Below, in pieces: positions 6,001 to 54,528 of a stretch of DNA of 64,000 nt. The stretch comes from Amphiscolops sp. MND2022 (Eukaryota). The stretch spans positions 61,568,001 through 61,632,000 of the forward strand of contig OZ076409.1 of assembly GCA_964187785.1 (NCBI GenBank). The letters run 5' to 3'. Each line of letters begins with the position of its first letter. The first letter of the stretch is position 1. The notes under the pieces were generated by a model. The model was given only the letters and a program-made list of their open reading frames with translations, searched no databases and had not been told where the DNA came from. The position numbers and the translations under genes are program-made.

Positions 6001-6014
6001 ATTTCTAAGATCGA

Positions 6015-26200: not shown

Positions 26201-28564
26201 CAGATTTTTTTTCGCAATCAGTTTTCCTCATCTATTTCCGGCGTCCAGTCAGTCCCATTTGACATCTTTCTTCAAAAGCTTTCTCATTCTGTCGGGTTTT
26301 TTTCGATAGATTGTTAATGAATTTCGAAAGGTGTTGTATGGAGCCCAGAAAAGACTTCAGTTCTTTTACATTTTTCGGTGCTTCCAGTTTGGTTATGGCT
26401 TCTGTTTTGTCTTTAATTGGTTTGACGCCGTTTTGATTAATGTGGTAATCAAGCCAGGTTAGTTTTTCTTGAACAATTCTGTTTTCATCTCACTGGCTGA
26501 TATCCGGCGTTTTGCAATTTTGTGAGAACTTCTCGCACCTCTTTTTCGTGATCTTCGATGTTACCGTTAGTCACACAAATAATTTAATCTAGCCAGGCCG
26601 GTGTTTTATATTCCAACACGGCGTCTATATGTTCTTGAAACACCGTGGGAATATCCGATAAGCCGTAAAAACCCTGCTTGAAACGGTAATGTCCGGTAAA
26701 GTCTCCTCCAATAGTTGAGAATACACAATGTTTAGCGGCTTCTTTGGATAGTTTTGCCTGGCCGTACGCGTAATCCAAGTCGATCTGTGACATCCAGATC
26801 TTTCCTTCGCCTTTGGTAATTTTGGCGGAGACTTTGCTAATTAGCACTTCGGTATCGCTGCCCTTCTTTTTATACATGCTTCGATTAGTTTTCTTGAATC
26901 CACTGCTATTTTGACTGACTTGTCTTTTTTGATAGTGATGACTGCGGGTGATATAAAACAATTTTCAGTAGTTTTGTCAGCTTTTTCGAGCTGTCCCTTT
27001 TCGATTACTTTTTCTAGTTCTTCGCGAACAATTTTTTGAAAGTGGATGGCTACCGGCCTTCCCTTTTGTTGTATGGGTTCGATGTCTTTTCTCAGCTGGA
27101 TGTCGATGGTGAGATCTCTGATAGTGTGGTTGTTTTTGAATAAATCTTCGTGTTCTTCGATGATTTTCTTTCTTCTTTCTTCTTCTTCCACGTAACGGAT
27201 GACGTTTGTTTTCTTGGCGCCTTGTAATCCAGTTTCCAAATTGTGAAGCCAATCTAAGCCCAATTAAGGTTGAGTGTTTTTGTTTTCTGTTATGAGAATT
27301 GGTAATATCTCTTTGCTTTTTTCCGTTTTCACTTCGACCATCGCTTCACCTTTGAATTTTCTTGGGTTTTTGTTTAAGTCCACAAAAGTTTTTGTTGTCT
27401 TCTTCGTCTCAATTGGATTGATTATCGATGGGATATTTGTCACCGGTGAGCCAGTATCAATAATAAATTCTTTGGCTGGCCGTGGACCAATAGGATTGTT
27501 TTGTAAAAATCGACTCAGTTAATACCGTTGACGGATTGAATATGATCGGTTTCCGGCCATGGCTCGGTATTGCTGTCCGATGATACTGCTTCGGTTACTC
27601 GGCTGACGGTCTTGGATTTGCACACTTTGGCAAAATGTCCCATCTTTTTACAGTTGTTGCATTGGGCTTTCCGTGCCGGATAAATATGATCTAGTGACCA
27701 GTTCGGGTTTCCGCAGAAGCGGCAGTTTCGGTTTGAAAATTTTTTCTTCTCGTTGAATTGGGTTTTCCGCTTTCGTGTTTGCTTTGTATGACCGATCAAT
27801 TCGGAGGATGTTGAGCTACTTGTTGAGTCTTTTCTGGCCTTTTCGATTTTTGGTTTCTTGTCTCCGTATTTTTGGTTGTAATTGTCGAGTTCTATGGTTT
27901 CCAGTACCAGTTGTATTTTCAATGGGCCTTTAATAAATTTGTCACGGGCTCTTTTGTCTTTGATGATGGCCGCGAATTTGTAGGTATTAATTACTTTCGC
28001 TGTGCTATTGTTGAAGTCGTATTTTTCAATGTCCACCAGTCTTTTCCAGTATTCATCCATTGTTTCATTGTCATCTTGTTTCATGTTGAAGAACTGGGCC
28101 CTACTGTGGAATACATTTCTCACTGGAAGAAATGTTTTCTTGAATAATGTCAATAGTTCTTGTAGGTTGACATCTTTCAACTCTCGACCCCATTGGCTTC
28201 TCATGATTTCGTGTTTGGCCTTTGGACCCAGTGCCCAGATGACGTCACCTTTTATGTGATTCACCGTATGTGGGTCCATATATTCGATTCCCGCGTGGAT
28301 GATTTCGTCAAGGTTTCGGTTGTATGTCAAATGAACATACTCCGTTATTTGTTCCCACCACATCTCGGGGTTGGTCTTTGTGAGATCTGTTTCCCTGTGC
28401 TATAAAATCTGGATTTTGTATTTACTTTTTCCCGCTCGTTCGGATGTTGTTTGATTGTTGGTTGTTCTTGTTGATTGTTCCGATGACATCGGTCCGCATT
28501 CCGTTGAATTGGGATCGGTTTTGTTGTTTTCCATGGTTTTTTGTTCAGATTGTTAACTGCGCCA

Positions 28565-28780
28565 TAAAGTAAGTTAAAGAAACAGAAGGGATTAATACAG
28601 TGAATTAAAATGATACGATGTTAGGATAACTATTCGTATCTAGATGTCTAAGCAGTTACATCAGTCTTTACACAGTCTTCTTCTATCATATATGTATGGG
28701 ATTGCATGACTTCAGAATAGTAGCAGGTACTTGGAATGTTCTTTTTAGGTTGGCCATGAACTTATTTTTTTCATGCCACA
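28565..28780 (-). repeat. 5' LTR of the 22990-28780 element
   Basis: Near-identical to 22990-23213 and abuts the PBS. Confidence 0.9.
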
Positions 28781-29221: not shown

Positions 29222-30361
29222 CCCGGGTTGACACTCTTACTAGCACAATTGCTGTCTTGGCAAGATCTGACCAAATTCTTGCTACATCTTGGCGACCATG
29301 GGACCCATGGCAAGATACTTATTAAGATCTTACTAAGATGGTAAATTTTTCCAAGATACGTTTTGGAAGAAATTTCTATTTTCAGTGAACTAAAAGCAAT
29401 AACATATTTAGTATTCTGAATTTGTCTTTTTTTGATAAAAATTTCTAGCATTTTTGGATTTCTTGAAAAAAAGTCACCAAGACGCCTCTATTTAACCAAC
29501 CCCAACCCACCGAACAAGTCCTTGGAAAGAGCTACTTTGATCAAGTTAAGTTCATGGCATAAAAATGTCTTCAAAAAAACTTTAAACCTACTGTAATCAA
29601 AGAAGATTTTACGTTGGCATGATCAGGTTATGACTGTTGAAAAACTCAATGTAGGTTATTTAGAAGGCGGGGGAAAGGTAATTGGAAAGGTGTAGGCAAT
29701 CCAATGTATATATCTATTTATTATGCCATACTTATGTGATTATTGATCAATAAATGTTATGTCGGCAGCAATTGTTAAAAACGCAATAATCAATGTTGAG
29801 GGAAAAGAAAAAACGCCTAGAAAAATTCAGTGAAATGAATAAATTATGCTACAATTGCCACGCTTTATTGTTTACTATATGTTTCTTCGAAAACACGCAT
29901 TTCGTTTTACGATTTGTAGTATGAGGTCCAAGATTGATACGAGCTTGCAACGATCTCACAACGATAGGCGAGATAGTGCTGCAAGATATGAACATTGTAT
30001 GAACCCTAGTTGAAAAAAAAAACACAAATCTTGCGGGAATCAAGACAATGCATTTTTCTGGCAGATTTCTTGCAAGATTCTTGTAAGATATGCAATTTCT
30101 AGATTGTTGTGTTCAGCATTTTCCAAAAAGTCCTCGTAGTATGCTTCAGCCTCGTACCTTTGAAGTTCTAGTTTGACAGAAAAACAACCGTGTTGGTCAT
30201 TTTTAGTGAATTTTTTGACAAAAAATGTTTGCTCTTGGTTTGATGTATTTCTTGCAAGAATCTGACAGTAAAAGTATTTCTTGCAAGAATCTTACAAGAT
30301 TTGCATTTTTGTCAAGATCTTGCAAGAATCTTGATAGAATTGTATTCATTTTCAACCAGGG
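29222..30361. mobile_element. Non-autonomous TIR DNA element (superfamily unassigned)
   Basis: Ends CCCGGGTTGA / TCAACCAGGG. Clusters of CTTGCAAGA / CAAGATCTT subterminal repeats at both ends. No clear TSD. Confidence 0.55.
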
Positions 30362-30380
30362 AAGATATAAATAGTGTTAC

Positions 30381-30629
30381 CCGTCTGAGGATGAAGTTTG
30401 ACTGGAATATGTATCGGTGGTACTTGAACAACATAATGCTCTGGTCCTGGATCTTCTCGAAGGTGAAAGAGTAAACAGCGATGAGCAAATTTAGTAGTAT
30501 GATGTTGGTCTGCAAGATGAAAGCGAAGAAGAATAAAAGGCCCACTACACTGTTGACAGAAGAGAAAAAGTCGTCAAACTGTTCCGCATATTGGGTACCA
30601 TTTGCCATCCAGATGTTGGAATCCACCAC
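30381..30629 (-). CDS. TRPM-like channel exon (S6 helix and TRP domain)
   Basis: VVDSNIW...LFFFAFILQTNIILLNLLIAVYSFTFEKIQDQSIMLFKYHRYIFQSNFILRR matches the TRPM NILL.NLLIA.F..TF..V......WKFQRY pattern. AG/GT bounded, phase 0-0. Confidence 0.9.
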
Positions 30630-30900
30630 CTGAAGCAAAATATTGCCTTCCGTTTTTGAAACGTTTTTCTGGGAGAAAATAACATGACGTCATTGGCTTC
30701 ATTTGATTAAAAACCTTTTTGGCCGGAAATGTTCAGGATCTGAGAAATGAGAAAAACACGTAACATACTCCACAAATTTTGCAGTAAAAATTGTTAAACC
30801 TGTGTTAAGGTGCAATTCGATAAACCATGAATTTCGAACAAAATGACATTCCAATTCTAAGTCTGAATGAAACGTTGAAATAGAAAATGTGAAACACTTC

Positions 30901-32385
30901 CGTCGTGATTGCTCTCACTTCGTAGGGAATCAATTGAACTGTGCCTGCGGTTGTGATTCCAATCACGGGAGCTAAAATCTATTCTAGAACGATTTCCGAA
31001 GTCCTTTTTACTATTATCAGCTCCTAGGCTCCTGCTCAGTCTACTGGACTTAAGGTCCACATCTTCCCGCAATTATGGTCTCTGACTTCCCAAAGTATTC
31101 TGAATGCTAGATAGTATTTTCTCATTATTTGCAGAATGTATTGAATCAGTTATCTGGGAGTTTAGGTCTCTCTTTAGCTCATCAATTCTTTTAGAGACCT
31201 CTAAGTTAACCAATCTCACATTTTCTAAGGTGGTTTCACTATTCTCACTATTCTTTTTACTATTTGAATTTTAAAAGTGACCTAAAATCTTCACTTTTCT
31301 GAACTACGTCCTGTCTAGGTCCTTTTGACTCAACGTCCACTTCAACATTTCTGTCTTCAGAATTGCTTTCTAATTCATTTCTCGCATACGATCCTAACAT
31401 TACGTCCAAATTATCTACGTCAGACATCTGGTTTGCTTGTCTGGAACGTCTTTTCTTTGCTTTTTCTTTCCTTCTTGAACACATTGAAAATGAAGGCTCG
31501 AGTAAAATTATATTATTGAGCGTGATATTTTATCAACAATGGGAAGTAATCAAAAGCAACAAGGCAAATTGAATTGTCATTAAATTGTGACAGTTATAAA
31601 GAGCTTAAACTCAATTTGAGTGATGGTTGTATCGATTGTGTCCCCTGACCTTGAGTCCTTACAGTTTATATGTGTAGCAGCATGACACTCAAAATATTGC
31701 TGATCATACTACTAAAAATAGCATCAAAGTTGGGCAAATGGACCCTGGGGACTGTCGCCATTATTGCATCACAATGACTTCATACTAAAAATAGCATCGT
31801 TACTAAAATCAGGGATCGTAATGGGACGGGGGGCGTAAAGGCGGCACGCCTATCATGTCCTAAAATCTAAAAGTAGCACATTACATGACGTTTGTTTACA
31901 TACGAGTAGATAACTGTAAATATTAGCTTCATTTTATGGACCAGCGGTCCAAGCGTCTAAGCACAGCTAATTGTATAAATGCATGAACGATTGAATGATT
32001 GAACAAATGCTGAACGCCGGTTGGTTAATCAGGAAAAGGACCACACGTCGAATTGACTAGTACAGGCGTCAATTCGAACGCGTTTCATTTCACTGTATCA
32101 GTTGATCATATTAATCTAATTGCATAATTCATCTAATCTGCACTTCAACAATACTGGTTTACATGGTATCTATACTATAAATCAAACAATATAGAAAAGA
32201 ATAAAAATAGTGAAGTTTTTGAACAACATAAGGCAATAATATTAGCAGGGGGAAACGTTTGTAGTTTATAGGACCACGGGTCCAGTTGACTTAGAGCGGT
32301 AAAACTCCTGGGGGAAGAGGCAGGCTACCCCGATCGTCTGAAGGTACTTGATATCGGTTTTCATCGCAGGCGGCAGTCTGCGACA
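30901..32385 (-). mobile_element. Solo LTR (~1485 bp) of a family related to the 41734-54528 element
   Basis: Minus strand starts TGTCGCAGACTGCCGCCTGCGA (cf. TGTCGCAGGCTGCCGCCTGTGA) and ends ...AATCACGACG (cf. CATGACA). TSD ACTTC/ACTTG. Contains a gag N-terminus homolog MCSRRKEKAKKRRSRQANQMSDVDNLDVMLG. Confidence 0.85.
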
Positions 32386-32989
32386 ACTTGCTTATGCTTC
32401 TACTCATTCGAAAGGTAACCGCTTTTTCACAGTGACTATCAGATGCAACAGATGTTTTTCATCAAATGCCGCAATCAAGAACTTCAGCGGTTGATGTAAA
32501 TCCAGGCATATCCGATTGCCTCCCGGTGAACCATCAGGGAAATCTCTGATCTCCAGAGCTTAGTTACTCGTATTTATCGGTATTAAGTGCTAATCCATTA
32601 TGGGTGTTCATGAAAACGAGACACATTAGAGTGCATAGGCAAGCTAAATTTGCTCAAAGCACAATTTTGTGCCTTCAATACCTCGGAATCCACGACCATA
32701 ACTTTAACCGTGCAAAATCGGCAAATTACGTCATAAGTCCAGGATTCCACGGACAAGCATGCCACGGACAACCAACTGAATTTTCGTGTCCCGGATTCCA
32801 TGACAAGCAGCAAAATAGCTTGCCTATGCACTGTAATGCAAAATTTTTGTTCCGCTCTGATTCCAAACTTATAAAAAGAAGCATAAACAGTGTTTCTTTT
32901 TTCCTACTATCTTCGATACATTCCGACAGACTCTTGATGGAGGAAAAGCACTTCTGGATACTGAAAACGTGCATGAGCTTCTAATATTT

Positions 32990-33319
32990 TCCAAAAAGTT
33001 TCCCTTCATTTTTTGATATTTTTGAATGTTCTTTGGATATTGTTGGATTCGAAAAAGTGTTTTTCATATACCCAGATGGTCTCCCTTTGGGTTTTTTGGC
33101 AATGTGAGACTTTTGTTGAAAGAATTTCTCATTAATTCGATTTTTATTTGATGTTTTCAGTTATAGAAAAGCGTTTCATGAGCACGAAAGCTTCCTTTGT
33201 GTGTTTTAGGTACTCCTTTATCCAAGAGATTTAACTCAGACACGCCATGATCACATTTTTAAAACTTTCGCTCTTTGCGCTTTGAGCCGAGTGCCGACTT
33301 GAGACGTTTCTGTCTTGTT
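32990..33319 (+). mobile_element. HINE-like repeat, 3' part
   Basis: Ends GAGTGCCGACTTGAGACGTTTCTGTCTTGTT. Confidence 0.5.
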
Positions 33320-33386
33320 GATACTTGTTAAAGAACACGAATCGCTGTTGATTAAATTGATTGATTCTTGGCTTTCATGCACTCAC

Positions 33387-33477
33387 CTGAAGCATACCAC
33401 CTATATCTCCGAGCATGGGCCAGTAGGTGTGATCGAACGCCGCCTTGATTGTTTTCTCTTCGCTCGTTTCTCCATAC
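33387..33477 (-). CDS. TRPM-like channel exon (pore helix / selectivity filter)
   Basis: (R)YGETSEEKTIKAAFDHTYWPMLGDIGGMLQ resembles the TRPM F..PYW..FGE pore motif. Acceptor cacAG (phase 2), donor GTGAGT (phase 0). Confidence 0.8.
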
Positions 33478-34827
33478 CTGTGATGAAACATTGCCTGTAG
33501 AGAACAACAACTTTTTGAATTTAAACATTTTCTTACTCTTGCAAACGAAGTTTGGGTTTTTGCAAGGTCGATGCTGAATTTCAATGGATAAATCAATTAA
33601 CTCTTCTTCCGAGTCAGAAAAAGAGAAAAGAAGAAAGGAAAGTTTTCTCCTTGTGATAAAATACTATCCAAGTAGTTCGAAGGAAAATGAGAGGACATGA
33701 AAACGAGTTTTTATGCTTGGCGTTTTTTGCCCTCGAGAACGTGTTCACGTTGAAATTGAGCATTCAATTCGAAAAATTCCTTTTTAGTCGGCGCTTTTCC
33801 ATTAGGAAAAGAAAGAAAAATTTTTCCATAAGGAAAACTTTTTGTGCACTGTTACTGTGGCACTGTGCACTTTTGTCATAAGCACTTAGTACTTGATTTT
33901 GAACACATCCAAAGTTTACATGAAATACGAAACCATTTCAAAGCAGAAGGGTTGCCCTTTTCCACTTTTTATCGTCATAATGAGACTTTTCCCCTTTTTC
34001 GCCTTTCTAAGATTTTTTCTCCAAACATTTTAATGTCTCCGAAAGATCTTGCGTCTACTACGAGTAGTTTTTAAACATGTCGGAGGTTCACATTCCATGA
34101 TAATTCAAGTTCATCGACACATTTTCGAATAAAGACGGAAACTCAATGATCTTCGGTTACATGGACTTTGGGTCTCTTCTTGTGGGCTCTTACCCTGTCG
34201 AGATGAAAAGGGTACACAGAGGACTTTCTCATCCGAAGATACTGCGAAATTCACATTCTCAACGAACATTTTTCTACATGTTTCTCCAAAAGTGGAATAA
34301 ATAATACGATTGAGGCCTTCAATGCCTGGGAGGATTTTTGGCACCATACAAATTCCCATATGCCGAAATGTCGACTCTTAGGGTTATTGATAGCCGAGCT
34401 ACCCGATTTACGCAATGTTTGTTCACTTGATAGATTCACTTGAAAGGCGCATAGATTACAGAAGCACCTGTGCATCAATCGACAACTTTGATTATTGTGA
34501 TCCGTTTGAGGTATACCAAGCCAGGGTCAAACGCTTTTTTTCACCGAGCCAGCGTACCTGAAGTAAACAATACTACTCGCTCGTTGGACCGATGGATATT
34601 AGTTGCTTGTATTTTATTTGGGATTGGTAGGTGAGAATTCTATATAGCTGCCTAATAGAAGGATGGACTGGTGAAGACGTAAATAACATTCTGATTTTAA
34701 TTTCATAGGGTCCGCCCATTCTCTTCACGCACCCTATTGCCGCAAAGGTACGCAAATAGCTATTCGTTCAATATGCTATCGATTCCATATATGACATACC
34801 TCAATTCGGAACGTGCCAACGCGCCCG

Positions 34828-35334
34828 TTTTTTAGTCGGCGCTTTTCTAGTGAAAAGTGCCCGACTCTTACAGTGGCTAGTTTTTTTTCTTTTTTTTTTC
34901 GTCAGACTACAATCTCACTCTGATTGGTCCACTTTTCTTACAATCGAAACTACTAAAACTACTACCATAAGGCCAAGTCCGGTCAGCGGAAATTGGTGCA
35001 AAAGGGTCCCCCTTTTCATTTTTTACTTTTTTAACGTAACCTACAAAACCGGACGAGACCAAAGGGTCCCCCTTTCGATTTTTTTCGGCATTGTGCGACT
35101 TTTTTCCCAAAATTTTTTAATGTCTCAAAAGAGTCCCCCTTTCGAGTTTTTTGATATTTTGCAACAGAAAAAATGTTAAGAAAGCCCAAAGGGTCCCTCT
35201 TTTACGTTTTTTGGCACTATGCGACATTTTCTGAAAGAAAAAAATCAAAAATTTCAAGTTTTTTTTCAAAAAAAAGTCTTTTGCGCTTTTTGAGCCTTAG
35301 ATATGGTGCCGACTTTAGACGTTCCCGTCTTGTT
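34828..35334 (+). mobile_element. HINE-like repeat, full copy
   Basis: TTTTTAGTCGGCGC...GCCCGACT at the 5' end, and GGTGCCGACTTTAGACGTTCCCGTCTTGTT at the 3' end (stem AGACG/CGTCT). Confidence 0.75.
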
Positions 35335-35479
35335 TGGCCAACCTACGGTACTTTCATTGCTATCAGCTCAGGGCCTCTAAATAGGCATACCTAAGTTTCT
35401 TGTGTATATGTGCGAAATTTCATATCTCGTGACACTTTTCGACTCTGCTTAAAACTGAAGGGCCTGAGATGCCAAAGTA

Positions 35480-38942: not shown

Positions 38943-39083
38943 CTGCAAAACGAATGAGGATAAAAAACAAACTGTTTGCCAGAAACTTATTGATGTCAAT
39001 GCTATTCTACACTACGTTTCATTCGTATTTCACAATGTGGAAAAGTTTGCTAGCCTACCCTGAGGGTAACCCTTATCGTACAA

Positions 39084-41733: not shown

Positions 41734-43465
41734 TGTCGCAGGCTGCCGCCTGTGACGGTACATTAATAACGACGTCAGCGGAAAATCAGGAAATCGTCCC
41801 AGGTACCCTACCCACGTTTTAAACTTTCCCTTACTGAAACTTATATTTACTAGTTGATCACATTCATTTTACTTATTCAAGTGCATTTTCACATAATTGT
41901 TCATGATATTAGTCTGTTAAAATTACGATTTGGAGCTATCCAAATCAAGTTGTGATTGAAATTGTAAAAGGTAGTTGTTGAAATTAATCAAAGCGGTAAC
42001 GTACAATAAGCAAGTTAATCGCGAGAAGGAAACGTGTTCAAGTAAGAAAACGTCCCTTCTCGGCGATGTAACTTTCAGCACGGTTATTAGCCAATCAGAG
42101 CTCTCCTTTTTACTAATTATGAGTGCTTTATTTATGGTGGCCGGATATGGCCAATTGACTAAGCGGCGCTAATTTGAATCAGTCCCACAGTCAAATGGAC
42201 AGCTCCGGCCAATTCGAGCTTAATGATGCTTTTGTTACATAATTGGATCAGTACTTACGCGGAGCTATTAGAATCATGTTTTTAGACTAAATGAATACGG
42301 TTGTGACGTTTTGATGTTTGTATACCTTTGATTTGGATAAAGGGACGATTATGGCCTTTTACCATGTTCTTCATATGTGCAATACATGTTATGAATTTGG
42401 GCCTATTCTGGCTTTGATATGCGAGTGTATTTTCGTGAATACCAATGCAATATTAGGATTCCATACATAGTAATACATTCCGTTTTTAGCTTAACATGCA
42501 GTAAACTTGTGCCGGCACGTGCCTTCATTTTACGTTACTATAAAATATGCAAATTGTGGTATTTGTTTACATCACACATTAAGCGGTCTTAACCGATAAA
42601 TTGTTTGAAGTTGCTACTTAAGATGATGACTCTGAATTCCATTCCTTAAATGTCCCCCGGAAATATGTAGTTGTCGGGGATTTTCTTATGATGATTGTAA
42701 AATCCTATGATTTGTCTTGATCAAACTATGTAAAAAATGTGTGTGTCATCCCTTTAGGGGTATAAATACCCGTACCCCTGCAGGAAGACTCATACTTTGT
42801 ATTTCTCTTCATTTGATAAAGACGTTCATAATACAAACGGTTTCACTGTTAACATTTCGGAATTGATAATTCAAGTATTCAATCCGGTTCGGTCTTAATG
42901 CCTACTACAAGAAAGCAAAAGAAAACAAGGAAATCTAGAGGATTAGAGATTCTCTCTGACATTGAAAACCTTGACATAATGTTAGGTGAAAATCACTTCA
43001 ATGACATGGGGAGAGACGAAAGTCTCGATGGAACTTCCATTAGAAGACAGGAAAGTGTTACAAGCAATAACTTAGAAAATGAGGAAATGAATCTCCATTC
43101 TGATCATAGAAATCCCGAAACTGGGACTAGTGCCGGTTACGACCGAATCACAGCAAGTATAGATTCTCAAGCTGAGATCAATAAGTTATCGTGTGAACTA
43201 AACTCTAGAATATCTAGAGAGATGGATGAGATGATGAACAGTGTTAGTTCTCAAATCCAGAGAGCCATAAGTGATGCCATCAATAACCAAGTTTTGCCAC
43301 AAATTCAAAACGTTATTATGGCCGGTTCAGGACAGGAGACTAGAAGGGGATGGGAGAGATCTGACGAGAGACCGGAAAGTTATTCCGAAGTTCAACACAA
43401 CGCGAAAACTAGAACTACTCTCAATAATGAACATGGTGATAAAACACAACGTAATGTTCATGACA
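41734..43465 (+). repeat. 5' LTR (1732 bp)
   Basis: Direct repeat of 52797-54528. About 9 substitutions spotted by eye, no indels. Confidence 0.97.
42761..42768 (+). promoter_or_regulatory. Putative LTR TATA box
   Basis: TATAAATA within GGGGTATAAATACCC, about 135 nt upstream of the gag ATG. Copy at 53824. Confidence 0.6.
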
Positions 43466-44592
43466 TGGTGACAGGAGACAACGAATCTCCAAATCCAGTT
43501 CCTGAGTTTCTCACAGGACGCATCTCATCCCGAAATCATCTCGACAGGTCCTTCGAGGACGTCAACCTCAACACGACGATCCCAGCACAACAGAGAATCG
43601 CTACGGCTATTGACTCCGACCCTATCACTCGACTGGCAGACGTCTTGACTACAATGCAGAATAGACCGACAGCCCAACAACTTACCATACGCCCAGTCAA
43701 CTCAAATACCATGACATTCGATGGCAAAAGTGAGAAATTCGATTTGTTCGAAGACCTATTTCACACTATGATCAAGATGCAGCCAGAAATGACTGAGCAA
43801 ATGAAGATCAATCACTTCCACTCTTTATTGAGGAAGAACGCTCTTCAAACGTTCAGAAATATCAGCTCAAGCAACCGACAAACTCTAGAGGACGTATTAG
43901 TCATCTTTAGACGGAAATACGTCAAGCCCGAGTCACAGGCGACTGCCAAACATAAATGGCACCGTCTGGTCTTCGATCCCAACACGATGAAACTGCCTGA
44001 CTTTCTCGAAGAATTAAACCAAGGAGCCGAGAAGGCGTTTGGTGATCATGCGCAGAAAATGATTGACAGCTTGCTTTACGCAAAACTGCCACCAAAACTG
44101 AAGCGGTCCGTCAACATGGCCAGATTAGAAAATGGCTCATACGATGAGATAGTTGCTCATTTGGAGAGAGAATTAGAGCTTAACGCCCTCGAGGAGTCAG
44201 ATGACCTACCGATGGCCACAATGACCTCCTCGACTACGAAACCTAAAACCCCTCTGTCCACAGGGCAACTGTCCGATATCACTTGCAATTATTGCAAGGA
44301 AAAGGGCCACATGGTCAAGGACTGCGAAAAACTGAAAAAGAAAAAAGAAAAGGATGCCCAACAAGGCAAGTCGACGCAGAAGAAAACATATCCGGAGTGT
44401 GGCATTTGTGGGAAAAATAACCACCCGGAGGAGAGATGTTGGCAAGGCGCTGGTGCACATCTTAAACCCAAACGCACTAGACCTGAGGACTCAACTGACA
44501 ACAAGCCCAATCCCAAGGCTCAGAAACCTCAGACCAAACCGACATCATCGGGCTCCCAATCCTCATATTCTGATGACGAGTCAAAAAACTAA
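42898..44592 (+). CDS. gag: Gag (564 aa), initiating inside the 5' LTR
   Basis: Intact ORF. Capsid-like region from TFDGKSEKF, two knuckles CNYCKEKGHMVKDC and CGICGKNNHPEERC. Confidence 0.92.
   Translation: MPTTRKQKKTRKSRGLEILSDIENLDIMLGENHFNDMGRDESLDGTSIRRQESVTSNNLENEEMNLHSDHRNPETGTSAGYDRITASIDSQAEINKLSCELNSRISREMDEMMNSVSSQIQRAISDAINNQVLPQIQNVIMAGSGQETRRGWERSDERPESYSEVQHNAKTRTTLNNEHGDKTQRNVHDMVTGDNESPNPVPEFLTGRISSRNHLDRSFEDVNLNTTIPAQQRIATAIDSDPITRLADVLTTMQNRPTAQQLTIRPVNSNTMTFDGKSEKFDLFEDLFHTMIKMQPEMTEQMKINHFHSLLRKNALQTFRNISSSNRQTLEDVLVIFRRKYVKPESQATAKHKWHRLVFDPNTMKLPDFLEELNQGAEKAFGDHAQKMIDSLLYAKLPPKLKRSVNMARLENGSYDEIVAHLERELELNALEESDDLPMATMTSSTTKPKTPLSTGQLSDITCNYCKEKGHMVKDCEKLKKKKEKDAQQGKSTQKKTYPECGICGKNNHPEERCWQGAGAHLKPKRTRPEDSTDNKPNPKAQKPQTKPTSSGSQSSYSDDESKN
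43466..43477 (+). promoter_or_regulatory. Primer binding site, embedded in the gag reading frame
   Basis: TGGTGACAGGAG directly after the LTR-terminal CA. Close to the tRNA-Leu-type PBS TGGTGTCAGGAG; tRNA identity not verified. Confidence 0.8.
44583..44589 (+). promoter_or_regulatory. Putative -1 ribosomal frameshift heptamer A_AAA_AAC
   Basis: Immediately before the gag stop. The downstream protease frame is -1 relative to gag. Confidence 0.7.
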
Positions 44593-47500
44593 CTTCGCCA
44601 CGACTCCAATATAACGAATTAATATCTGTCCGACAATACATCAGATCGGACCCTCCAACACAAACTTTCCACCAATACAATTAACAATTGATGGGCTATC
44701 CCTCTGTTGTCTGGCAGCAGCAGATGGAAAAAGCCACCATCATCACCTACAATAACACCCATTTGTTCCAGAAACCAATTCCTGTTTGGGACCCTGATCA
44801 CACCACCACCTTCACTACCCGATTCAGGCCCATTCCACTAATCGATGATTACAACCCGACATACATCGACCCAGACTATGGCAGAGATCCCTACTGGGAG
44901 ACCGAGCTTTACAACCAAGATTTACTGCAATTCCAATATGTCCTAGACGATATTGAACATTATAATAGAACAGCCCACGAGAACCCTCCAATTACCCATA
45001 ACAAGAAAACAAGAGCGCTAATTGAAAACTGGCAAATGAATGATGGCACAAACCATCCAGTGTTCCCAAACCCATTGGGGACCGAGACCCATGACAGCAA
45101 TGTTGAACCCATACCACAATCATTGCTAGACGAGAAACAGTTCCAGAATGTCTTAATCACTAGAGACGGTGAACCAGACTGTTTACCCCTGTCGACTAAC
45201 ATCAATCTCAAATGCAAGAAACGCATGTTGTACTTCCTAATGGACTTTGGGGAATTGACCATAGATGGACTTATTGACACTGGAGCGCTGTCCAGTGCAA
45301 TTCCCGAAATGGACCTCCGGAAAATTCGACTTTTATCTCCACAATCTGTTATCCGGGAAGGTCCGCCTCCGAATTTCCAAATAATGGTCGCTAATGGGCA
45401 ATTGGAAACTCCTAAGAGTACAATAGAGCTCAAATTCGAAGTTGGTGACATTGAGTTCCATGAAATCTTCATAGTGATGGAACATCTGACAGGTCCGATC
45501 ATTGGACTAATGTTCCTTCAAAGAAACCATACAGTGCTGGACATGAGACAAGGGATACTGAATTTCCCGTTCTTTTCGATGCAGCTCAAAACAGCTGATC
45601 ACAAGTATTCAAATGTATTAGAGCCAATTCTCAACCCTATTGAGATAACCATTCCACCAAATGATAAAGTCCTAATTAGGACCAATTCCCTACTCTACCC
45701 TGAGAATGCTGTCACTGGAATTTTGCAACCGAGCGACCTTCTACATGAAGAAGGCGACATCACATTTTGCCCAGCTTTGGTCACTCTGAATGACGGCAAT
45801 ATACTGATACCAGTGAACAACTTCACAGACCACCCTTATAAACTCAAAAAGGGACTTCATATTGCCAATTTCTCTGTCATGACGCCAGAACAGATGAAGT
45901 ACGTCAAACCGATAGATCCGGCATCAACCTGGCACCTTCTACAGAATGACCAGGAGCAGGCAGCCCACTATGTCAGCAGTCTCATCAAGACCAATAGAAA
46001 TCCGCAAAACTCTGAAAATTATTGGTTCCCAACTCCAGAAAACCCCTGGAAATCCGGAGGAACACACACCTATACAAAAACGAATCCTTCGAGAATTACA
46101 GGCCTTACAAGACCTAGAGACACTTGACCCCACCAAAGATGAAGACTCACGTGCATAATTCTTAGAAAACTTCGATTGGAAAGATTCCACCCTTACTCCT
46201 GAAGAGAAGGAGAAAATAGAGGAATTGTTAGTGGAATTCCATGACATCTTTGCACGACACCGATTTGATATAGGCATGAACGAGGACTTCAAGGTGAAAC
46301 TGACGCCTAAAGACGATTCCCCAGCCTATAGCCAAAGCCTTCCAGCTCCTATCAATCTGAAGGAGGACATCCTAGTCGAATTAGCCATGTTACACAAATA
46401 TGGCATCATCACCACCCTACCGTTCTCGAAATATGCGAGCCCAATATTCGCACAAAAGAAACCGAACGGAAAACTCCGACTCTTGGTTGACTTGAGAAAA
46501 ATCAACAACCTCATCTCGGATGATTATATCAACAACAATCATCCCGTCAGTACGCTAGTTGATGCCGCCCAACACTTGGCAGGCAAAAAACTGTTCTGTA
46601 AATTAGACTGTTCGCAGGCATACCACTGCCTACCAATGGCTGACCAACGTTCAATCGAAATGTTGGCTTTCAATTTTGCCAGTCGCACATTCGCCTACAG
46701 ACGTTTGGCACAAATCCTTAGTCGGTCACTATCCGCATTCTCGAGTTTCATGAGGGAATACCTCGACAAAGTCATCAAAGCGGATCAGTGTGCCCAGTAT
46801 GTGGACGATATCGGCATCGCAGCCAATGATGTTGACCACCTCATGACGAACCTGAGAGCTACATTCAAATGCATTCAGGAAGCAGGCCTTAAGTTAACAA
46901 TGCACAAATGTCATTTCGGTGCAAAAGAAATCGATTTTCTCGGACGGACTATTACCCCACAAGGCGTCAAACCCCAGAAACAGAATGTGCAAAACTTTCT
47001 GGAAAAGACCAAATTCCCGAAGTCGAAAAAGGCTTTACAGCGCTATTTGGGATTCCTAAACTACTACAGGAATTATGTCCCAAGACTTTCAGAACGCCTT
47101 GCTCCATTCTACAAGATGCTGAAGAGTGACGAAAAGGTCCTAGTATCGAAGGAATTAGTCCAGCAATTTGAAGAAATCAATAGGGCGCTAGACAAATGTT
47201 GCGACTTGGCCCTACAACAACCCATTCCGAACAAACAAATAGCACTAATGACTGATGCAAGTTTTGGTGCAGCCGGATACGCGGTCCTAATCGAAGACGA
47301 CCCAAGCCAGAAATTTACGTCACACAGAAAATCGTATGCACCAGTCGCATATGGATCAAAAACTTTCACCCCAGCGCAGATAAAGATGTCAATTTATGCC
47401 AAAGAATTCCTTGCAATTTATTTTGCATTCAAAGAATTCGGACATATATTTTGGGGTGCGCCGAAACCGGTCATCATCCTTACAGACAATAAAGCTGTCA

Positions 47501-49790
47501 CGAGATTTTTCCAAACAAAAATAATACCCCCAGCCCTGTGGAACGCGTGTGATTATGTCATTCAGTTCAACTTTGTCATAGCACACATCCCAGGAGCACA
47601 AAATACAGCTGCCGACTATTTGTCCCGATTGGAAGCAGATCCAACGGACAAATTGGTGATGAAAATTCGTGAAGATTTACAAACACTACCCATCGAAATC
47701 AATGTCCAATCCGCAGGGGTATCGCAAGAAGAACAAATCTTCTACACCAATGACGACGATGAGACAGAAGAACAGTTGTGGGCAAGAAAAGAAGCAATCA
47801 GGAAAAATCCAGCAACTGATGAACCCACTGTTACTATACAAACTCTGTCAACAAATCTAGTCAAGCAACACCCCGATATACAAGTCCGATTGAGGAAAAC
47901 GAACCAGATCATTATCGAGCAATCCAAAGATGCGGTACTACAACAATTGAAAGCAAAATTGCTTCATGAAGAGTATTCAGAAAATCTACTGCACCAGGAT
48001 GCCCGATATAGACATTACGCAAACAATCTGGAACGAATTGTACTAAAGGACGAAATCCTGACAAGGCAATATTTCGATGAAACAGGGAATGTTAAATACC
48101 ATCAAATTTTACTCCCGCAACATTTACTCCAGGAATTGCTCCAATCTCTTCACGAGACAGCGCATAAACATCCTGGGATTTCAAAAATGCTGCAGGAAAT
48201 TCGACAGAGGTATTACTACCCTAGCATGGCTAAACACGTCAAAAAGTGGGTAGAAGGGTGCGAACAATGTGCCAGAGACAAAAGAGTCCCTAACGCAACG
48301 ATCACACCTGAGCTGCTTAACTTGCCCGAATGGGACCTCGGACCTGAAGACGCCATGCAAATAGACCTATTGCCGAATCTTCCCCCAAGTGGTGGGTATG
48401 AAAACGTCTTAACAGCAATTGATGTATTCTCCAGATATTTGTTCGCCTATCCCCTTACGGACGCATCAGCGATCAATGTAGCAAAAGCGATCATTGACAT
48501 CATGACTAAACACTCATATCTACCAACGACTCTTATCACTGATAAAGGTACTGCATTTACTTCTACAATTATTGCGGAGGTTACGCAGATTTTGGGCATC
48601 ACACTCAAAAGTGCAACAACAAAACACCCGCAGACAATTGGGAAATTGGAGCGAACTCATGCCTCATTGAAAACAAATATCAAAATGGCATGTGGAGAAT
48701 ATCGCCGACAATGGCACAAATACTTGCCATTAGCAGTACTAAATCATAATACTACCTACCACGCCAGCATCGGTTGCGAGCCAACGAGGGTATTTCATGG
48801 AAGAATTCCATTTAATATTTTAGATCACAAGCTTGGAAATAATCCAAACGAGCAAATTAACCCCACAACCGAATTTGCTGAAGAAATCCAAAACCGGACA
48901 AAAATCCTGATTGACAAAACGAAGCAAAACATTATGCAATCGTATATCAAGTACAAAGAATATTACGACCGCAAAGCAAAAGCCGCTCCACTAAAGGAGA
49001 ACGAATACTGTTTTGTCTTACAGCCGAAAGCGGACAATCAAGGATCGAAAATTCCATTCCGCGATTATCGTTGGGTTGGACCATTTGTAGTCCAAAAGGT
49101 TTTGCCAAATGAAAACTATATAGTACGACGAATCAATACGAACAAAACTCAAATTTTGCATCGCATTCGTCTTAGAAGGTTTGTCCCCTATCAACCGCTT
49201 GAGGACAATTCCCGAGAACAACAGTTGCAGACAGATGAAGAAATTGTCATTCCGCAAGATGATTTATACGTCATAACGTGGGAAACCGACTTTGGCGAGC
49301 AACTAGTTACACGAGGCAACGAGACTATTCCGACCAGCATGCCGAACGGCCGAACGTGCCAGAAGCGAATACAAATGACGTAACCGAGAATGAACCGGAT
49401 TACATAATCACGAGTGACGAAACAAGTTACGCTGACCACGCGGCGCGGAACCGGATTGAAAGATTAAATCATGACGTCACAAAAAGGAATGAAGCTAGTG
49501 AAGCGGCTACCAATGACAAATCTGATTGGACGAATCCGACCGTTTCCCCAAAAAACCAAGAAAAATCATTGCCGAATACGGCAGATAGACCGGAAAACGA
49601 TGAAAATTTTACAGAAAGAAACTTGACGAATGAAAACGATACACAAAAATCTCCAAACAGGGGGGATGATATTATCGTGCCCGAAATATCCGAAAACGAT
49701 GCTAGAAATGAGAGTCTGAGCCCTAGAGGAGGGAAATATAACCTCAGACCTAACCCTAACCCAAACTACTCAGAAGACTTCAGATACTAG
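44589..49790 (+). pseudogene. pol: Pol (protease, dUTPase-like segment, RT, RNase H, integrase, acidic tail) with few lesions
   Basis: LIDTGA, KLDCSQAY, YVDD, MTDAS, ILTDN, HHCC, QIDLL / ITDKG / LERTH, WVGPF, C-terminal KYNLRP. Stops at 44682 and 46156, frameshifts near 46045 and 49350. Confidence 0.93.
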
Positions 49791-50025
49791 GGAAGACTGA
49801 ATTCAGTTCAGGAGATGAGTCCCGATTTGGATTTTCTTTTCTTTTATCCTTTAGCCCCTTGAGAGTCAGTATCTTTTGAATAAATAATGGGACGTATGAA
49901 AGATGCCTTACAGAGGTAACAATACGGGATCAAGAAATCAAAAGAAGGAAAGTATATAAATAAAGGCAACAAAACAAAAAATCAACAAAGTTTACAGTTC
50001 AAAGTACATACATACATATGTACAG

Positions 50026-51226
50026 TTAGTCTTTAGATGAACCAGGCTCACTGACTCCAGCAGTGGATGACGAAGAGGCGCGAGAAGCGCGACGTTCCAT
50101 TTTCCTTCGCTTAGTGCTAGTAGGGGCTTTCACAGCAGACATATCAGCTACGGAACATTGATCTTCTGGCGCACCACGGACCAGAGATTTTTGAGGGGTG
50201 GAAAGAGCTGCCCGGTAGGAAGCCAACAATGACTTATAAATCTTCGAACGCCCGAAATTGTCCACGTACGTCCAAGGATCATAATCGGGAGCAAATGCAG
50301 AACGCCCGAAAGAAGAAGAGAAGTCAATGAACTTGGCCAGATTCCCATCATCACTACAGAAAGCAACTGCGTCACGCACGGTAGCTACGTAACTTTGACT
50401 GGGAAGAATGACGTCTGTCAATCTGCTATGACGTCCAGAAGTGGAAACTGTCCCGAAAGTGACATCAGGATACGTGGGGCTAACAGACGTAGCGCACAAG
50501 CAACACAACTTGAACAAATAGAATAGGCAGCTACGATTACGGAGGAATTCCAGCTCGGACAGGAACTCAATTCAGGTAGCTGAGACTCAGAGGCCTCGAT
50601 GACCTTCAAGGCAGACTCTAAAGCTGACAAGTCAGCTTCTTGGACTTCCTCGTCATCAGACTGGATGGGCGTACTCGACCTTCGGTTCTCAGCAGTCGTC
50701 AATACTAATTCAGGAGGGTCATTGACTTGTTCTTGGCTCTGCAGCAGGGCAGACGCAGGATGTTTCTCTTCGTGTGTAACGATGCGTTGTGTCTGTTGCA
50801 TCCGTTGGAGCATAGATTCAGCATATGATGTTACATCTGGGTCACTGTCAGCACTGTGAGTAGAGGTGATATCATCAGTACGGCTTCGAGACAACTCTTG
50901 GGACACACTCGGATTTTGGATTTGTGGTCCAGCTTCGGTCGGTGGATTAGCCGCTGAAGTAGTGGTAGCAGGTCTGACTGGTACATCGGCAACTTCAGTT
51001 GTTTGATTCTCTAAATAAAAAGAGATAAAGTTTGGCGGTATGCTTCCTCGAAAAGAATCCATTCTACCGCATTAGAAACCTTCCGGAAGTACTTGAGAAT
51101 TTGAACAAAATGTGCTGTCACGCGCTTATTAGTGGAAACAGGAAGCTTATTGTGAACGTATTTAGCCCTGATCAAGCTAAGCTAGTTCAATATACGAAAA
51201 CCAGACCAACCTGTGCTTGAAGACAT
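50026..51226 (-). pseudogene. Antisense accessory gene of the element (putatively spliced, ~335 aa, one frameshift)
   Basis: Exon 1 ATGTCTTCAAGCACAG (51226-51211), GT-AG intron 51210-51011, then the 214-aa frame, switching near 50572 into the 163-aa frame ending at 50026. Confidence 0.6.
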
Positions 51227-52099
51227 GTTTTTCCCGGGTTGTTGCTCCAAAAAGAGTTGTTTTGAACTGACGATTGTGAGATGTGGATGGTGGCCTTTCA
51301 CGGTCGAGGATGAAGGGGAATAAGGATACTCCGAAGAGAATGCGTTGGACGTAGACAAATAGATGGCAATTGGGAGATTGCAGATAAAGAAAACAAATGT
51401 AAGGTGATCGGAATTAAATAGAATTGGAATTGGATGAAGCAATTGAAAAGTTGGAGTTCGTGGCTGAAGAAATTACCAGACTAATATTATTTGATTATTT
51501 ACATATTTAAAATGTACACGGAGTCTGCCAGCGAAGTGTACAAAGGACTTTGTTATTTACAGCTTATTTAGTTAGAGGCCAGTTATGGCCGTTTGCCCTG
51601 TTTTGTTTTACCGTTTGGTCCAGTTACCCTTAGTTAGAATTTTCGCCATCTTGAATTACTTAGATTTATTATTTTCGCCATTTTTATTATTTAATTTTAC
51701 AATTTATCGAAGCTTAACGCTGATTGGATGAAGCCATTACGAGAAGTTTTGGTGACGCGTGCCGCTAATTGTTTACAAGCGACCCGACCTGTTAATTACC
51801 CACTTGAGACGGATGTAGTTGATATTCATAAGTCGAGCGCCATTCACACCTCTTCTAGTGATGACACTGATGAGGGGTAAACATCAGGCTATCAAAGGGA
51901 ACCGACCAATTAAAGAATTCCATTCAGAAAAGTTTACGACGAATCGGGACGATTAACCTAAGATTCTCCCGCCGAACTGGGAAGTTCGGAAAAAGGCCCG
52001 ATTCGACTAAATTCTTGAAACTGATAAATTCATTCTACTACAAACGTCTCTTCAATACAGTCGCTACGAGCAGCTTCAAAAATAGCAAAAAAGATAATC

Positions 52100-52885
52100 A
52101 TGAGCAAATACAACTTAGCTAGAAGATTGTTCGATCTGGAGGAATACGACTCAGATGAGTCTGAAAAATCAGTAATATACATTTTCAGCAGCGAGGGAGA
52201 GTCTTCGGACTAGGAAACCGACTGCTCCACGGACACGGAGCAACTTTTTGCAAGAATCGAAAGGAAAGTCACCTCCAGCCCCATGTTAATCGGGGGCCGC
52301 ATAATGACTGTGGAGGAACCCTCAGAAGATGAACCAGAAGCTGGCCCCAGCTCTTCCCAGACGCAAACAGATGTAACTCCAAAATTTGACCACAGGTACT
52401 TTGACCAGGAGATGTGTTATGCTCCCCCAAAGAAGTTGGGAAAGTCAAGGATAGAAATTTGCAAGACTCTATTACCAGTGCCTGAGTCACCCATGTCACC
52501 GCCTGACCATGAGAGAGGACCAAGTTTGGACACCCCCCTGATGCAGCCTACAATGGGTGGTTCTCACGCGTCGTTTCATGTACAGAACACAAGGCCGTAC
52601 GAAGACGTGAGCAATAAACTGTACTCTGGTTGTATGGTGTGTGGCAGATCCTCAGAAGCAATAAAGAAAGAGAAAGTAGAATGGTATGTTGCAAGGTCCA
52701 AGCCGCGAGGAGAGCCCGAGTACATCATGAAAATCAGAAGGGAGGCATATGAGAACGGTCTCAACGCCGGGGCATTCCTCTTCATAACACCCGCAGTGTC
52801 GCAGGCTGCCGCCTGTGATGGTACATTAATAACGACGTCAGCGGAAAATCAGGAAATCGTCCCAGGTACCCTACCCACGTTTTAA
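52100..52885 (+). pseudogene. Accessory ORF-X (~261 aa, one internal TAG at 52211), ending 89 nt inside the 3' LTR
   Basis: ATG at 52100 is in frame with the 200-aa ORF. Acidic N-terminus, CMVC motif, C-terminal VSQAAACDG...PGTLPTF. The C-terminal peptide is conserved in the solo LTR. Confidence 0.7.
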
Positions 52886-54528
52886 ACTTTCCCTTACTGA
52901 AACTTATATTTACTAGTTGATCACATTCATTTTACTTATTCAAGTTCATTTTCACATAATTGTTCATGATATTAGTCTGTTAAAATTACGATTTGGAGCT
53001 ATCCAAATCAAGTTGTGATTGAAATTGTAAAAGGTAGTTGTTGAAATTAATCAAAGCGGTAACGTACAATAAGCAAGTTAATCGCGAGAAGGAAACGTGT
53101 TCAAGTAAGAAAACGTCCCTTCTCGGCGATGTAACTTTCAGCACGGTTATTAGCCAATCAGAGCTCTCCTTTTTACTAATTATGAGTGCTTTATTTATGG
53201 TGGCCGGATATGGCCAATTGACTAAGCGGCGCTAATTTGAATCAGTCCCACAGTCAAATGGACGGCTCCGGCCAATTCGAGCTTAATGATGCTTTTGTTA
53301 CATAATTGGATCAGTACTTACGCGGAGCTATTAGAATCATGTTTTTAGACTAAATGAATACGGTTGTGACGTTTTGATGTTTGTATACCTTTGATTTGGA
53401 TAAAGGGACGATTATGGCCTTTTACCATGTTCTTCATATGTGCAATACATGTTATGAATTTGGGCCTATTCTGGCTTTGATATGCGAGTGTATTTTCGTG
53501 AATATCAATGCAATATTAGGATTCCATACATAGTAATACATTCCGATTTTAGCTTAACATGCAGTAAACTTGTGCCGGCACGTGCCTTCATTTTACGTTA
53601 CTATAAAATATGCAAATTGTGGTATTTGTTTACATCACACATTAAGCGGTCTTAACCGATAAATTGTTTGAAGTTGCTACTTAAGATGATGACTCTGAAT
53701 TCCATTCCTTAAATGTCCCCCGGAAATATGTAGTTGTCGGGGATTTTCTTATGATGATTGTAAAATCCTATGATTTGTCTTGATCAAACTATGTAAAAAA
53801 TGTGTGTGTCATCCCTTTAGGGGTATAAATACCCGTACCCCTGCAGGAAGACTCATACTTTGTATTTCTCTTCATTTGATAAAGACGTTCATAATACAAA
53901 CGGTTTCACTGTTAACATTTCGGAATTGATAATTCAAGTATTCAATCCGGTTCGGTCTTAATGCCTACTACAAGAAAGCAAAAGAAAACAAGGAAATCTA
54001 GAGGATTAGAGATTCTCTCTGACATTGGAAACCTTGACATAATGTTAGGTGAAAATCACTTCAATGACATGGGAAGAGACGAAAGTCTCGATGGAACTTC
54101 CATTAGAAGACAGGAAAGTGTTACAAGCAATAACTTAGAAAATGAGGAAATGAATCTCCATTCTGATCATAGAAATCCCGAAACTGGGACTAGTGCCGGT
54201 TACGACCGAATCACAGCAAGTATAGATTCTCAAGCTGAGATCAATAAGTTATCGTGTGAACTAAACTCTAGAATATCTAGAGAGATGGATGAGATGATGA
54301 ACAGTGTTAGTTCTCTAATCCAGAGAGCCATAAGTGATGCCATCAATAACCAAGTTTTGCCACAAATTCAAAACGTTATTATGGCCGGTTCAGGACAGGA
54401 GACTAGAAGGGGATGAGAGAGATCTGACGAGAGACCGGAAAGTTATTCCGAAGTTCAACACAACGCGAAAACTAGAACTACTCTCAATAATGAACATGGT
54501 GATAAAACACAACGTAATGTTCATGACA
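52797..54528 (+). repeat. 3' LTR (1732 bp), carrying a second copy of the gag 5' end (53961-54528, stop at 54414)
   Basis: Direct repeat of 41734-43465. Confidence 0.97.

What the first reader, a model, noticed from the sequence alone, without database searches (positions are those of the whole stretch)
30901..32385. Diverged solo LTR preserves both LTR-encoded peptides
Its non-coding middle shows no obvious similarity to the 1732-bp LTR. It still starts with the ORF-X tail and ends with a gag N-terminus (SDVDNLDVMLG vs SDIENLDIMLG, and ...NHD vs ...VHD at the LTR end), in the same codon phases. This is an independent insertion supporting a family-wide coding-LTR design.
Basis: seen in the sequence. 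Interest (0 to 1): 0.7.

Follow-up and report, generated by a model that had tools for sequence, protein, structure and literature searches.

The report
Retrotransposon repeat coding at both ends
This is the decayed leftover end-repeat of a jumping gene from a very large group whose repeats carry protein code at both ends and open with a conserved hairpin, which may help start the second DNA strand where the usual purine primer is short or missing.

Summary
Real solo LTR at 30901-32385 (minus strand, 5-bp target duplication matching 4 of 5), old and broken. Its family has a full-length parent with the same ends (1479/1470-bp LTRs, perfect duplication). The coding-LTR layout is clade-wide. In 29 of 40 elements sampled by their tRNA-Leu primer site, a frame of at least 100 codons runs out of the LTR into gag (0 of 40 in the other frames). 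In 13 of 17, a long separate ORF ends inside the 3' LTR. Both LTR-coded parts show purifying selection; the solo's gag remnant keeps the codon pattern (0.81/0.83/0.67). Corrections: the shared start is largely a conserved stem-loop (24 of 27 LTR starts), the terminal 'HD' is not conserved, and the solo's family keeps a 6-8-nt purine tract. The neighbour's family lacks one (13 of 1324 junctions have 7 purines; 1120 end CCCGCWG). Each half has a precedent: Ty1 for gag starting in the LTR, plant CRM for an ORF entering the 3' LTR.

The parts
30901..32385 (-). Solo LTR, 1485 bp, of an old family ('family B')
   Evidence: Ends match family copies; 52 matches among the 40 of 513 candidates scored, 67-87% identity excluding itself; parent LTRs 1479/1470 bp
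30896..30900 (.). Target-site duplication, left copy
   Evidence: 4 of 5 bases match 32386-32390
32386..32390 (.). Target-site duplication, right copy
32363..32384 (-). Predicted stem-loop at the very start of U3
   Evidence: RNA fold -10.1 kcal/mol, z -3.8, 0 of 200 shuffles as stable; conserved with compensatory changes across lineages
32291..32385 (-). Last 30 codons and stop of ORF-X, carried in U3
   Evidence: Same frame continues ORF-X homology in parents L037, L039, L041, L043
31665..31670 (-). TATA-like box, 186 nt before the gag ATG (inferred promoter)
   Evidence: a TATA-like hexamer lies 122-167 nt upstream in most other lineages listed there
30901..31484 (-). Broken 5' part of gag (about 195 codons): one frameshift, one internal stop
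   Evidence: tblastx E 7e-28 to L119 LTR, 1e-8 to the neighbour LTR; codon-position identity 0.81/0.83/0.67 against 10 family copies; breaks
41734..54528 (+). Neighbouring near-full-length Ty3/gypsy-type element ('family A'), perfect 5-bp duplication; LTRs 41734-43465 and 52797-54528 differ at 9 of 1732 bases
42898..44592 (+). gag, 564 codons, first 189 inside the 5' LTR; two CCHC-type knuckles
   Evidence: full-length homologs of 564-570 aa
43466..43477 (+). Primer-binding site, 12 nt, directly abutting the LTR, read as Met-Val-Thr-Gly in the gag frame
   Evidence: Complementary to the 3' end of tRNA-Leu(CAG) at L082 plus CCA; 7993 exact 12-mer hits vs 65 control
44685..49790 (+). pol in the order protease, RT, RNase H, integrase; in three frames in this copy
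50026..51071 (-). Remnant of the antisense cargo gene (this copy has about 3 kb less internal DNA than the near-identical copy at L086/L050)
52100..52885 (+). ORF-X, 261 codons (one internal stop here), last 28 codons inside the 3' LTR
52790..52796 (+). CCCGCAG motif at the place of the polypurine tract
   Evidence: 1120 of 1324 junctions end CCCGCWG; 13 have 7 purines

Best explanation
The stretch is a decayed solo LTR, likely left by LTR-LTR recombination, of a large Ty3/gypsy-type clade whose LTRs hold the first 100-216 codons of gag at their 3' end and the last 13-34 codons of a separate ORF at their 5' end, and whose first 23 or so bases are predicted to fold into a conserved hairpin. Inferred mechanism: RNA starts about 100-150 nt before the gag ATG inside the 5' LTR, so Gag is translated through R/U5, the LTR end and the tRNA-Leu primer site. 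ORF-X is likely made from an internal promoter and ends in U3. Reverse transcription copies U5 from the RNA 5' end and U3 from the 3' end, which are the two copies where each coding piece is used, so selection keeps both pieces and every LTR inherits both. The second copies, and all solo LTRs, are passengers that decay. The plus strand is likely primed by a short GC-rich RNA piece next to the LTR: a 5-14-nt purine run in some lineages (6-8 in the solo's family), a conserved C-rich CCCGCWG in the neighbour's family, where coding for ORF-X constrains the site. The adjacent hairpin is my best candidate for helping to fix the cut. Shown: anatomy, frames, selection, hairpin conservation, purine counts. 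Inferred: transcription start, translation, ORF-X promoter, priming role of the hairpin.
For: Parent with the same ends and a perfect duplication (L043/L044). In-frame D|MVTG junction in five family-B 5' LTRs, and ORF-X-like sequence before the 3' LTR in five family-B loci. 29 of 40 primer-site loci open for at least 100 codons upstream in the gag frame, 0 and 0 in the other frames; 26 of 40 open on both sides. 13 of 17 paired elements have an ORF of at least 150 codons entering the 3' LTR in one register, 0 in the other frames; 11 of 11 with both ends held have a perfect 5-bp duplication. LTR-coded gag dN/dS 0.13-0.33 in the five pairs with dS below 1.2, against 0.01-0.06 for the next 230 codons. 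ORF-X codons 9-28 inside U3: identity 0.78/0.80/0.32 by codon position in six family-A LTRs. Hairpin: 24 of 27 distinct LTR starts lie in the top 5% of their own LTR's windows; 93% of cells paired, 6 cells changed on both sides, 0 of 500 shuffles, slid controls 26-59%. PPT sequence is proposed to co-evolve with its RT (PMC3185511, passages).
Against: No RNA, protein or cDNA-end data. The junction creates its own in-frame ATG, so a shorter Gag starting at the primer site is possible. dN/dS is higher in the LTR part than in the internal part. 4 of 17 paired elements lack a long entering ORF: L083, L085 and L122 appear not to have one, and L088 has an interrupted frame. 3 of 27 starts are not in the top 5%. 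Only 2 of 9 pairs change on both sides (171 of 500 shuffles reach that); the structure was derived from these sequences, and copies are related. G-U pairs fall largely on third codon positions, so the folding strand is not settled. The junction pattern was built from ORF-X residues and favours family A.
Confidence: 0.72

Rival explanations
1. The LTR part of 'gag' is a non-coding leader or a decaying relic; Gag starts at the ATG formed by the LTR's last base and the primer site.
For: That ATG is present in all 40 sampled loci; the LTR part evolves faster than internal gag; N-termini differ greatly between lineages.
Against: Frame open upstream in 29 of 40 against 0 in the other frames; dN/dS 0.13-0.33; third positions most variable even for the solo.
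Confidence: 0.06
2. Plus-strand priming is conventional: even family A uses a degenerate purine-type primer read by its own co-evolved RNase H, and the U3 hairpin serves something else (RNA 3' structure, packaging, strand transfer, ORF-X mRNA, or integrase end recognition).
For: PPTs have no common consensus and are proposed to co-evolve with RT (PMC3185511); CRM PPTs can be 4 bp (PMC3059260); the hairpin is also present in L083, which has a canonical 14-nt purine tract.
Against: The family-A site is pyrimidine-rich (at most AG touches the LTR), yet LTR starts are precise and recent copies exist (9 of 1732 LTR differences). The Pro codon is CCC in at least 1120 junctions against 114 for the three other Pro codons, which points to a nucleotide-level signal.
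Confidence: 0.45
3. The shared 5' start is kept for the peptide alone; the hairpin is a by-product.
For: Ser-Gln-x-Ala-Ala-Cys-Asp is nearly invariant in 30 ORF-X homologs; variation sits partly on third positions.
Against: Lineages with different peptides (SHPSRCD, SRPQRCD, SRPAPGR) and lineages with no entering ORF still fold there; two pairs change on both sides.
Confidence: 0.12
4. The stretch is a truncated internal fragment or a chance match rather than a solo LTR.
For: The duplication has one mismatch and the end reads GACG, not GACA.
Against: Both ends coincide with family termini; for ten other or same solo-like copies the flanks match at 3-5 of 5 bases; the parent has the same ends.
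Confidence: 0.02

Closest known systems
Ty1 of Saccharomyces cerevisiae (Ty1/copia)
   Same: gag begins in the 5' LTR (PMC3522557, figure legend); 5' UTR of 53 nt and primer site inside the GAG coding sequence (PMC5454406, passages).
   Different: Ty1 has integrase before RT and only about a dozen gag codons in the LTR (both recalled); here 103-216 codons, gypsy domain order, tRNA-Leu primer, and a second ORF in U3.
Plant centromeric chromoviruses, CRM group A (also Beta Bingo1-4, 7)
   Same: Ty3/gypsy elements whose coding region crosses the PPT into the 3' LTR; PPT 4-13 bp (PMC3059260; PMC3605345; passages).
   Different: There it is the pol C-terminus with the CR motif. Here pol stops kilobases earlier and a separate ORF-X with no Pfam match enters U3; gag also starts in the LTR.
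Plant and fungal gypsy elements with extra ORFs between pol and the 3' LTR (Grande, RIRE2, Retand, Boty)
   Same: Conserved antisense and sense accessory ORFs in that position (PMC7264820, part 1 of 3 read).
   Different: Here the antisense gene has a conserved splice donor and a weak Hermes-like fold match; ORF-X overlaps U3.
HIV nef and MMTV sag (recalled, not checked by a call)
   Same: Accessory ORF overlapping the PPT and U3.
   Different: Retroviruses with env and a canonical PPT; gag starts after the primer site.
Tor elements of Oikopleura
   Same: Animal gypsy-like elements with a third gene driven by an internal promoter (PMC4402516, passages).
   Different: The third gene is env; the passages read say nothing of coding LTRs. 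Relationship by RT not tested.

Membership tests
Solo LTR | One LTR with both family termini | tested here: met
   last base differs from the family's GACA
Solo LTR | Flanked directly by a target-site duplication, no primer site or internal DNA | tested here: met
   4 of 5 match; flanks unrelated to PBS or ORF-X
Solo LTR | Full-length parent with the same LTR | tested here: met
   L043/L044: gag, pol, two LTRs 86% identical, perfect 5-bp duplication
Ty3/gypsy (Metaviridae-type) | pol order protease-RT-RNase H-integrase | tested here: met
   neighbour element; family-B parents by tblastn order
Ty3/gypsy (Metaviridae-type) | TG...CA LTRs with a 4-6-bp duplication | tested here: met
   39 of 40 end ACA before the PBS; 11 of 11 perfect 5-bp duplications
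Ty3/gypsy (Metaviridae-type) | tRNA primer-binding site after the 5' LTR | tested here: met
   12 nt to tRNA-Leu(CAG)
Ty3/gypsy (Metaviridae-type) | Polypurine tract before the 3' LTR: solo's family (B) | tested here: met
   6-8 purines in L037, L039, L041, L043, within the 4-13 bp of CRM
Ty3/gypsy (Metaviridae-type) | Polypurine tract before the 3' LTR: neighbour's family (A) | tested here: not met
   1120 of 1324 junctions end CCCGCWG; 13 have 7 purines. Family A works like a gypsy element but departs here.
Ty3/gypsy (Metaviridae-type) | RT groups with a named gypsy clade in a tree | not tested
   No named reference set at hand; best solved-structure matches are spumavirus-type Pol (E 7e-30, family read from recall), Ty3 RT and a pararetroviral polyprotein (E about 1e-22)
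Ty1/copia (Ty1-type coding U5) | gag start inside the 5' LTR, PBS inside gag | tested here: met
   (sequence only; translation not shown)
Ty1/copia (Ty1-type coding U5) | Integrase upstream of RT | tested here: not met
CRM chromoviruses | [quoted passage not shown] | tested here: not met
   pol ends at 49790, 3 kb before the LTR; the entering ORF is separate
env-bearing gypsy elements (errantivirus, Tor) | Third ORF is a membrane glycoprotein | tested here: inconclusive
   ORF-X has no Pfam or Atlas match and a low-confidence model; no membrane predictor was run; by eye it is acidic, Ser/Pro-rich and has no signal peptide
hAT transposase (antisense cargo of the parents) | Hermes-like fold and catalytic residues | tested here: inconclusive
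   One exon folded: no Foldseek hit; Hermes rank 2, Z 5.5, rmsd 4.1, 149 aligned, tied with unrelated rows; catalytic residues not examined

The most novel reading that the evidence does not exclude
The most numerous lineage of this clade starts its plus strand without a polypurine tract: a C-rich CCCGCWG piece that also codes for ORF-X serves as primer, and the hairpin in the first 23 bases of U3 sets the RNase H cut that defines the LTR's left end. That freed the site to become coding and gave an LTR that codes at both ends.
Probability: 0.25. Interest if true: 0.82.

Novelty: new variant of a known kind. Interest (0 to 1): 0.55.

Why it matters
The solo itself is an ordinary fossil. The clade it points to is unusual in three ways. 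A third of gag lies in R/U5, which implies a minus-strand strong-stop DNA of roughly 400-750 nt (inferred from the TATA position). An accessory ORF crosses the plus-strand primer site. And more than a thousand copies have precise LTR starts with no purine tract. Textbook reverse transcription treats the purine tract as required, so these copies give a natural, testable case of how RNase H chooses the primer. Practically, tools that need a PPT or look for gag only after the primer site would mis-annotate thousands of elements in this genome.

Tried and rejected
RNA evidence: no RNA holder was listed for 41734-44600. ORF-X function: no Pfam family, no usable Atlas hit, model with mean pLDDT 52 not searched further. 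An acidic motif SVIYISSDEE resembles a SUMO-interacting motif and a CxxC is conserved, but the labels are recalled and untested. Antisense exon: no Atlas hit, no Foldseek hit, weak Hermes match only; 1403 relatives at E 0.001, and the 10 of 150 looked up carry no names. A global DNA alignment of solo vs neighbour LTR was uninformative. No consistent AATAAA-type signal was found between the TATA box and the LTR end, so R is not placed. A likeness between the LTR start and the tRNA-Leu anticodon arm was dropped as too short. The family-A junction resembles a splice acceptor, but many copies read CTG instead of CAG, so I rejected that as the reason for conservation. Folding of 85-nt 3' junctions gave no common upstream structure. 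Within family B the gag part is no more conserved than the middle (0.75-0.79 vs 0.75-0.86), as expected for old decayed copies; only the codon pattern remains. Two of 21 rows in alignment A3 lack their first six bases. Literature: ten searches found Ty1 and CRM as precedents and no paper on a gypsy LTR coding at both ends or on PPT-less priming; the library lacks most subscription papers, and one paper on C. elegans Cer elements that I recall as a possible precedent was not held. Passages of PMC6844567, PMC5408684, PMC4202319, PMC11381356 and PMC10085805 gave nothing on coding LTRs; the last notes T-rich boxes upstream of PPTs. No supplements were read.

Full report
Observation. The stretch 30901-32385 is an LTR on the minus strand. 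It starts TGTCGCAG and ends GACG, and its flanks are a 5-bp duplication with one mismatch. Against the neighbour's 1732-bp LTR, blastn finds only the first 22 nt (E 0.023) and a 32-nt patch (E 0.96). Translated, two gag blocks score 76 and 74 against shuffle maxima of 60 and 71, and tblastx gives E 1.1e-8. The gag remnant begins at an ATG at 31484, shifts frame once and has one internal stop.

Its family. A search of the own genome gave 52 matches among the 40 of 513 candidates scored; full-length copies are 68-79% identical to the solo. Copies share both termini; for ten with both ends in host-like flanks, the 5-base flanks match at 5, 4 and 3 positions in 3, 6 and 1 cases. Of 18 stretches fetched around candidate parents, five show a family-B 5' LTR followed directly by the primer site, with gag in frame as D|MVT, and four show a 3' LTR preceded by an ORF-X-like frame and a 6-8-nt purine run (L045 has ORF-X but a damaged LTR start). 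One parent (L043/L044) has gag, pol, both LTRs (1479 and 1470 bp, 86% identical) and a perfect duplication. Between the solo and ten family copies, gag-part identity by codon position is 0.81, 0.83 and 0.67.

The clade. The 12-nt primer site occurs 7993 times exactly (control 65) and matches tRNA-Leu(CAG) (1 of 4 loci scanned was called a tRNA). I took 40 of the first 44 listed sites. In 29 of 40 the gag frame is open for at least 100 codons upstream of the site, against 0 and 0 in the other frames. Starts in apparently intact frames lie 103-216 codons inside the LTR and fall into several unrelated N-terminal types. For 20 of the 40, picked by hand for diversity and open frames and holding no family-A copy, I fetched the 3' side; 17 had the second LTR in range, 1.08-2.5 kb long. 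In 13 of 17 an ORF of at least 150 codons enters the 3' LTR in one register and ends after 14-34 codons. The three elements of the L083/L085/L122 type lack it, and L088 is interrupted. LTR-coded gag has dN/dS 0.13-0.33 in the five pairs with dS between 0.6 and 1.2 (of 66 pairs; most are saturated), against 0.01-0.06 just downstream. ORF-X is 255-264 aa in most of the 30 aligned homologs, 52-91% identical to the query; its codons 9-28 inside U3 show 0.78/0.80/0.32 identity by position in six family-A LTRs. A TATA-like hexamer lies 122-167 nt before the gag ATG in most lineages and 186 nt in the solo; none was found in that range in the L083, L085, L099, L108 and L122 types.

First, the shared start is mainly a stem-loop. 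The first 32 nt rank in the top 5% of their own LTR's windows in 24 of 27 distinct starts; the solo's has z -3.8. On 18 distinct rows, 93% of cells pair, 6 cells change on both sides and 0 of 500 shuffles reach this, but only 2 of 9 pairs change on both sides, which 171 of 500 shuffles match. The fold persists in lineages with other peptides or no entering ORF. Second, purine-tract loss is lineage-specific. Among 17 paired elements, the purine run touching the LTR is 14 nt in one, 5-8 in eight and 0 in eight. Genome-wide, of 1324 junctions matching an ORF-X-based pattern, 13 have seven purines, 1120 end CCCGCWG and 114 use another Pro codon. Related copies are not independent, and the pattern favours family A.

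Mechanism. Shown: anatomy, frames, selection, hairpin conservation and purine counts. Inferred from the standard scheme of LTR reverse transcription (established knowledge): U5 of both LTRs is copied from the RNA 5' end and U3 from the 3' end, which are exactly the places where gag and ORF-X are read, so both pieces stay under selection and pass into every LTR. A solo inherits both and then decays, as here; it is a witness to the design, not a working gene. Family A has precise LTR starts and recent copies (9 of 1732 LTR differences; 4204 exact matches to a start motif shared by families A and B), so its plus strand must begin at a pyrimidine-rich site. I think a short GC-rich primer, helped by the adjacent hairpin, is the best single account, but a co-evolved RNase H with the hairpin doing another job is about as likely, and nothing here tests it.

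Comparison. Ty1's gag begins in the 5' LTR (PMC3522557, figure legend) after a 53-nt leader, with the primer site in coding sequence (PMC5454406, passages). Plant CRM elements run pol into the 3' LTR over PPTs of 4-13 bp (PMC3059260 and PMC3605345, passages). PPTs lack a consensus and may co-evolve with RT (PMC3185511, passages). Extra ORFs between pol and the 3' LTR are known in plants and fungi (PMC7264820, first third read). Ten searches found no gypsy element coding at both LTR ends or lacking a PPT; the library is incomplete. Earlier notes of this scan already describe gag-in-LTR and the antisense transposase-like gene on other pieces of this genome, and gag-in-LTR in another genome. Look-ups for the PPT and for ORF-X returned no note on them.

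Verdict. The feature is real; the solo is ordinary, and the clade design it supports is a new variant of known layouts. Interest 0.55, carried by the two-ended coding LTR, the U3 hairpin and the missing purine tract.

Noticed in passing
window 30312-30689, 38357-38986 and 39908-40615, minus strand: Exon-like frames of a host cation-channel gene (Pfam Ion_trans E 1.5e-4 and 1.2e-3, PKD_channel E 1.3e-3, all below the curated cut-offs). The solo lies between them, apparently in an intron and in the gene's own direction.
   Followed up: partly
L123-L142 (between pol and ORF-X); remnant at window 50026-51071: Antisense multi-ORF gene with a CxxC..H..H finger; homology ends at a GT donor-like site at the same position in 12 or more loci across lineages; weak Hermes transposase fold match. 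Also present in family-B parents.
   Followed up: partly
window 51072-52099: About 1 kb of non-coding DNA between the head-to-head antisense gene and ORF-X, with CCAAT-like boxes by eye; likely a two-way internal promoter.
   Followed up: no
L099, L101, L108, L112: One lineage's LTR-coded Gag begins MGNKRS, which fits the recalled myristoylation pattern MGxxxS; the others begin with basic MPTTRK or MTTRSQ types.
   Followed up: no
window 8084-13896, 22990-28763, 56403-62323: Three other, shorter LTR elements of about 5.8-5.9 kb with 200-240-bp LTRs and gag/pol remnants; their LTRs were not checked for coding.
   Followed up: no
G000:C1:47790289-47797137: Five tandem copies, period 1545 bp, holding ORF-X and the 3' LTR junction.
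   Followed up: no
G000:C8:35587099 onward: Large tandem array of tRNA-Leu-like 3' ends; 942 of 956 pattern hits genome-wide are on one strand.
   Followed up: no
window 37713-37828: Inverted repeat with 58-bp arms and no spacer, 95% complementary.
   Followed up: no
window 3387-6701, 33264-36126, 40665-41077, 62825-63499: Dispersed modular repeat family with several short shared blocks, possibly a SINE or MITE.
   Followed up: no
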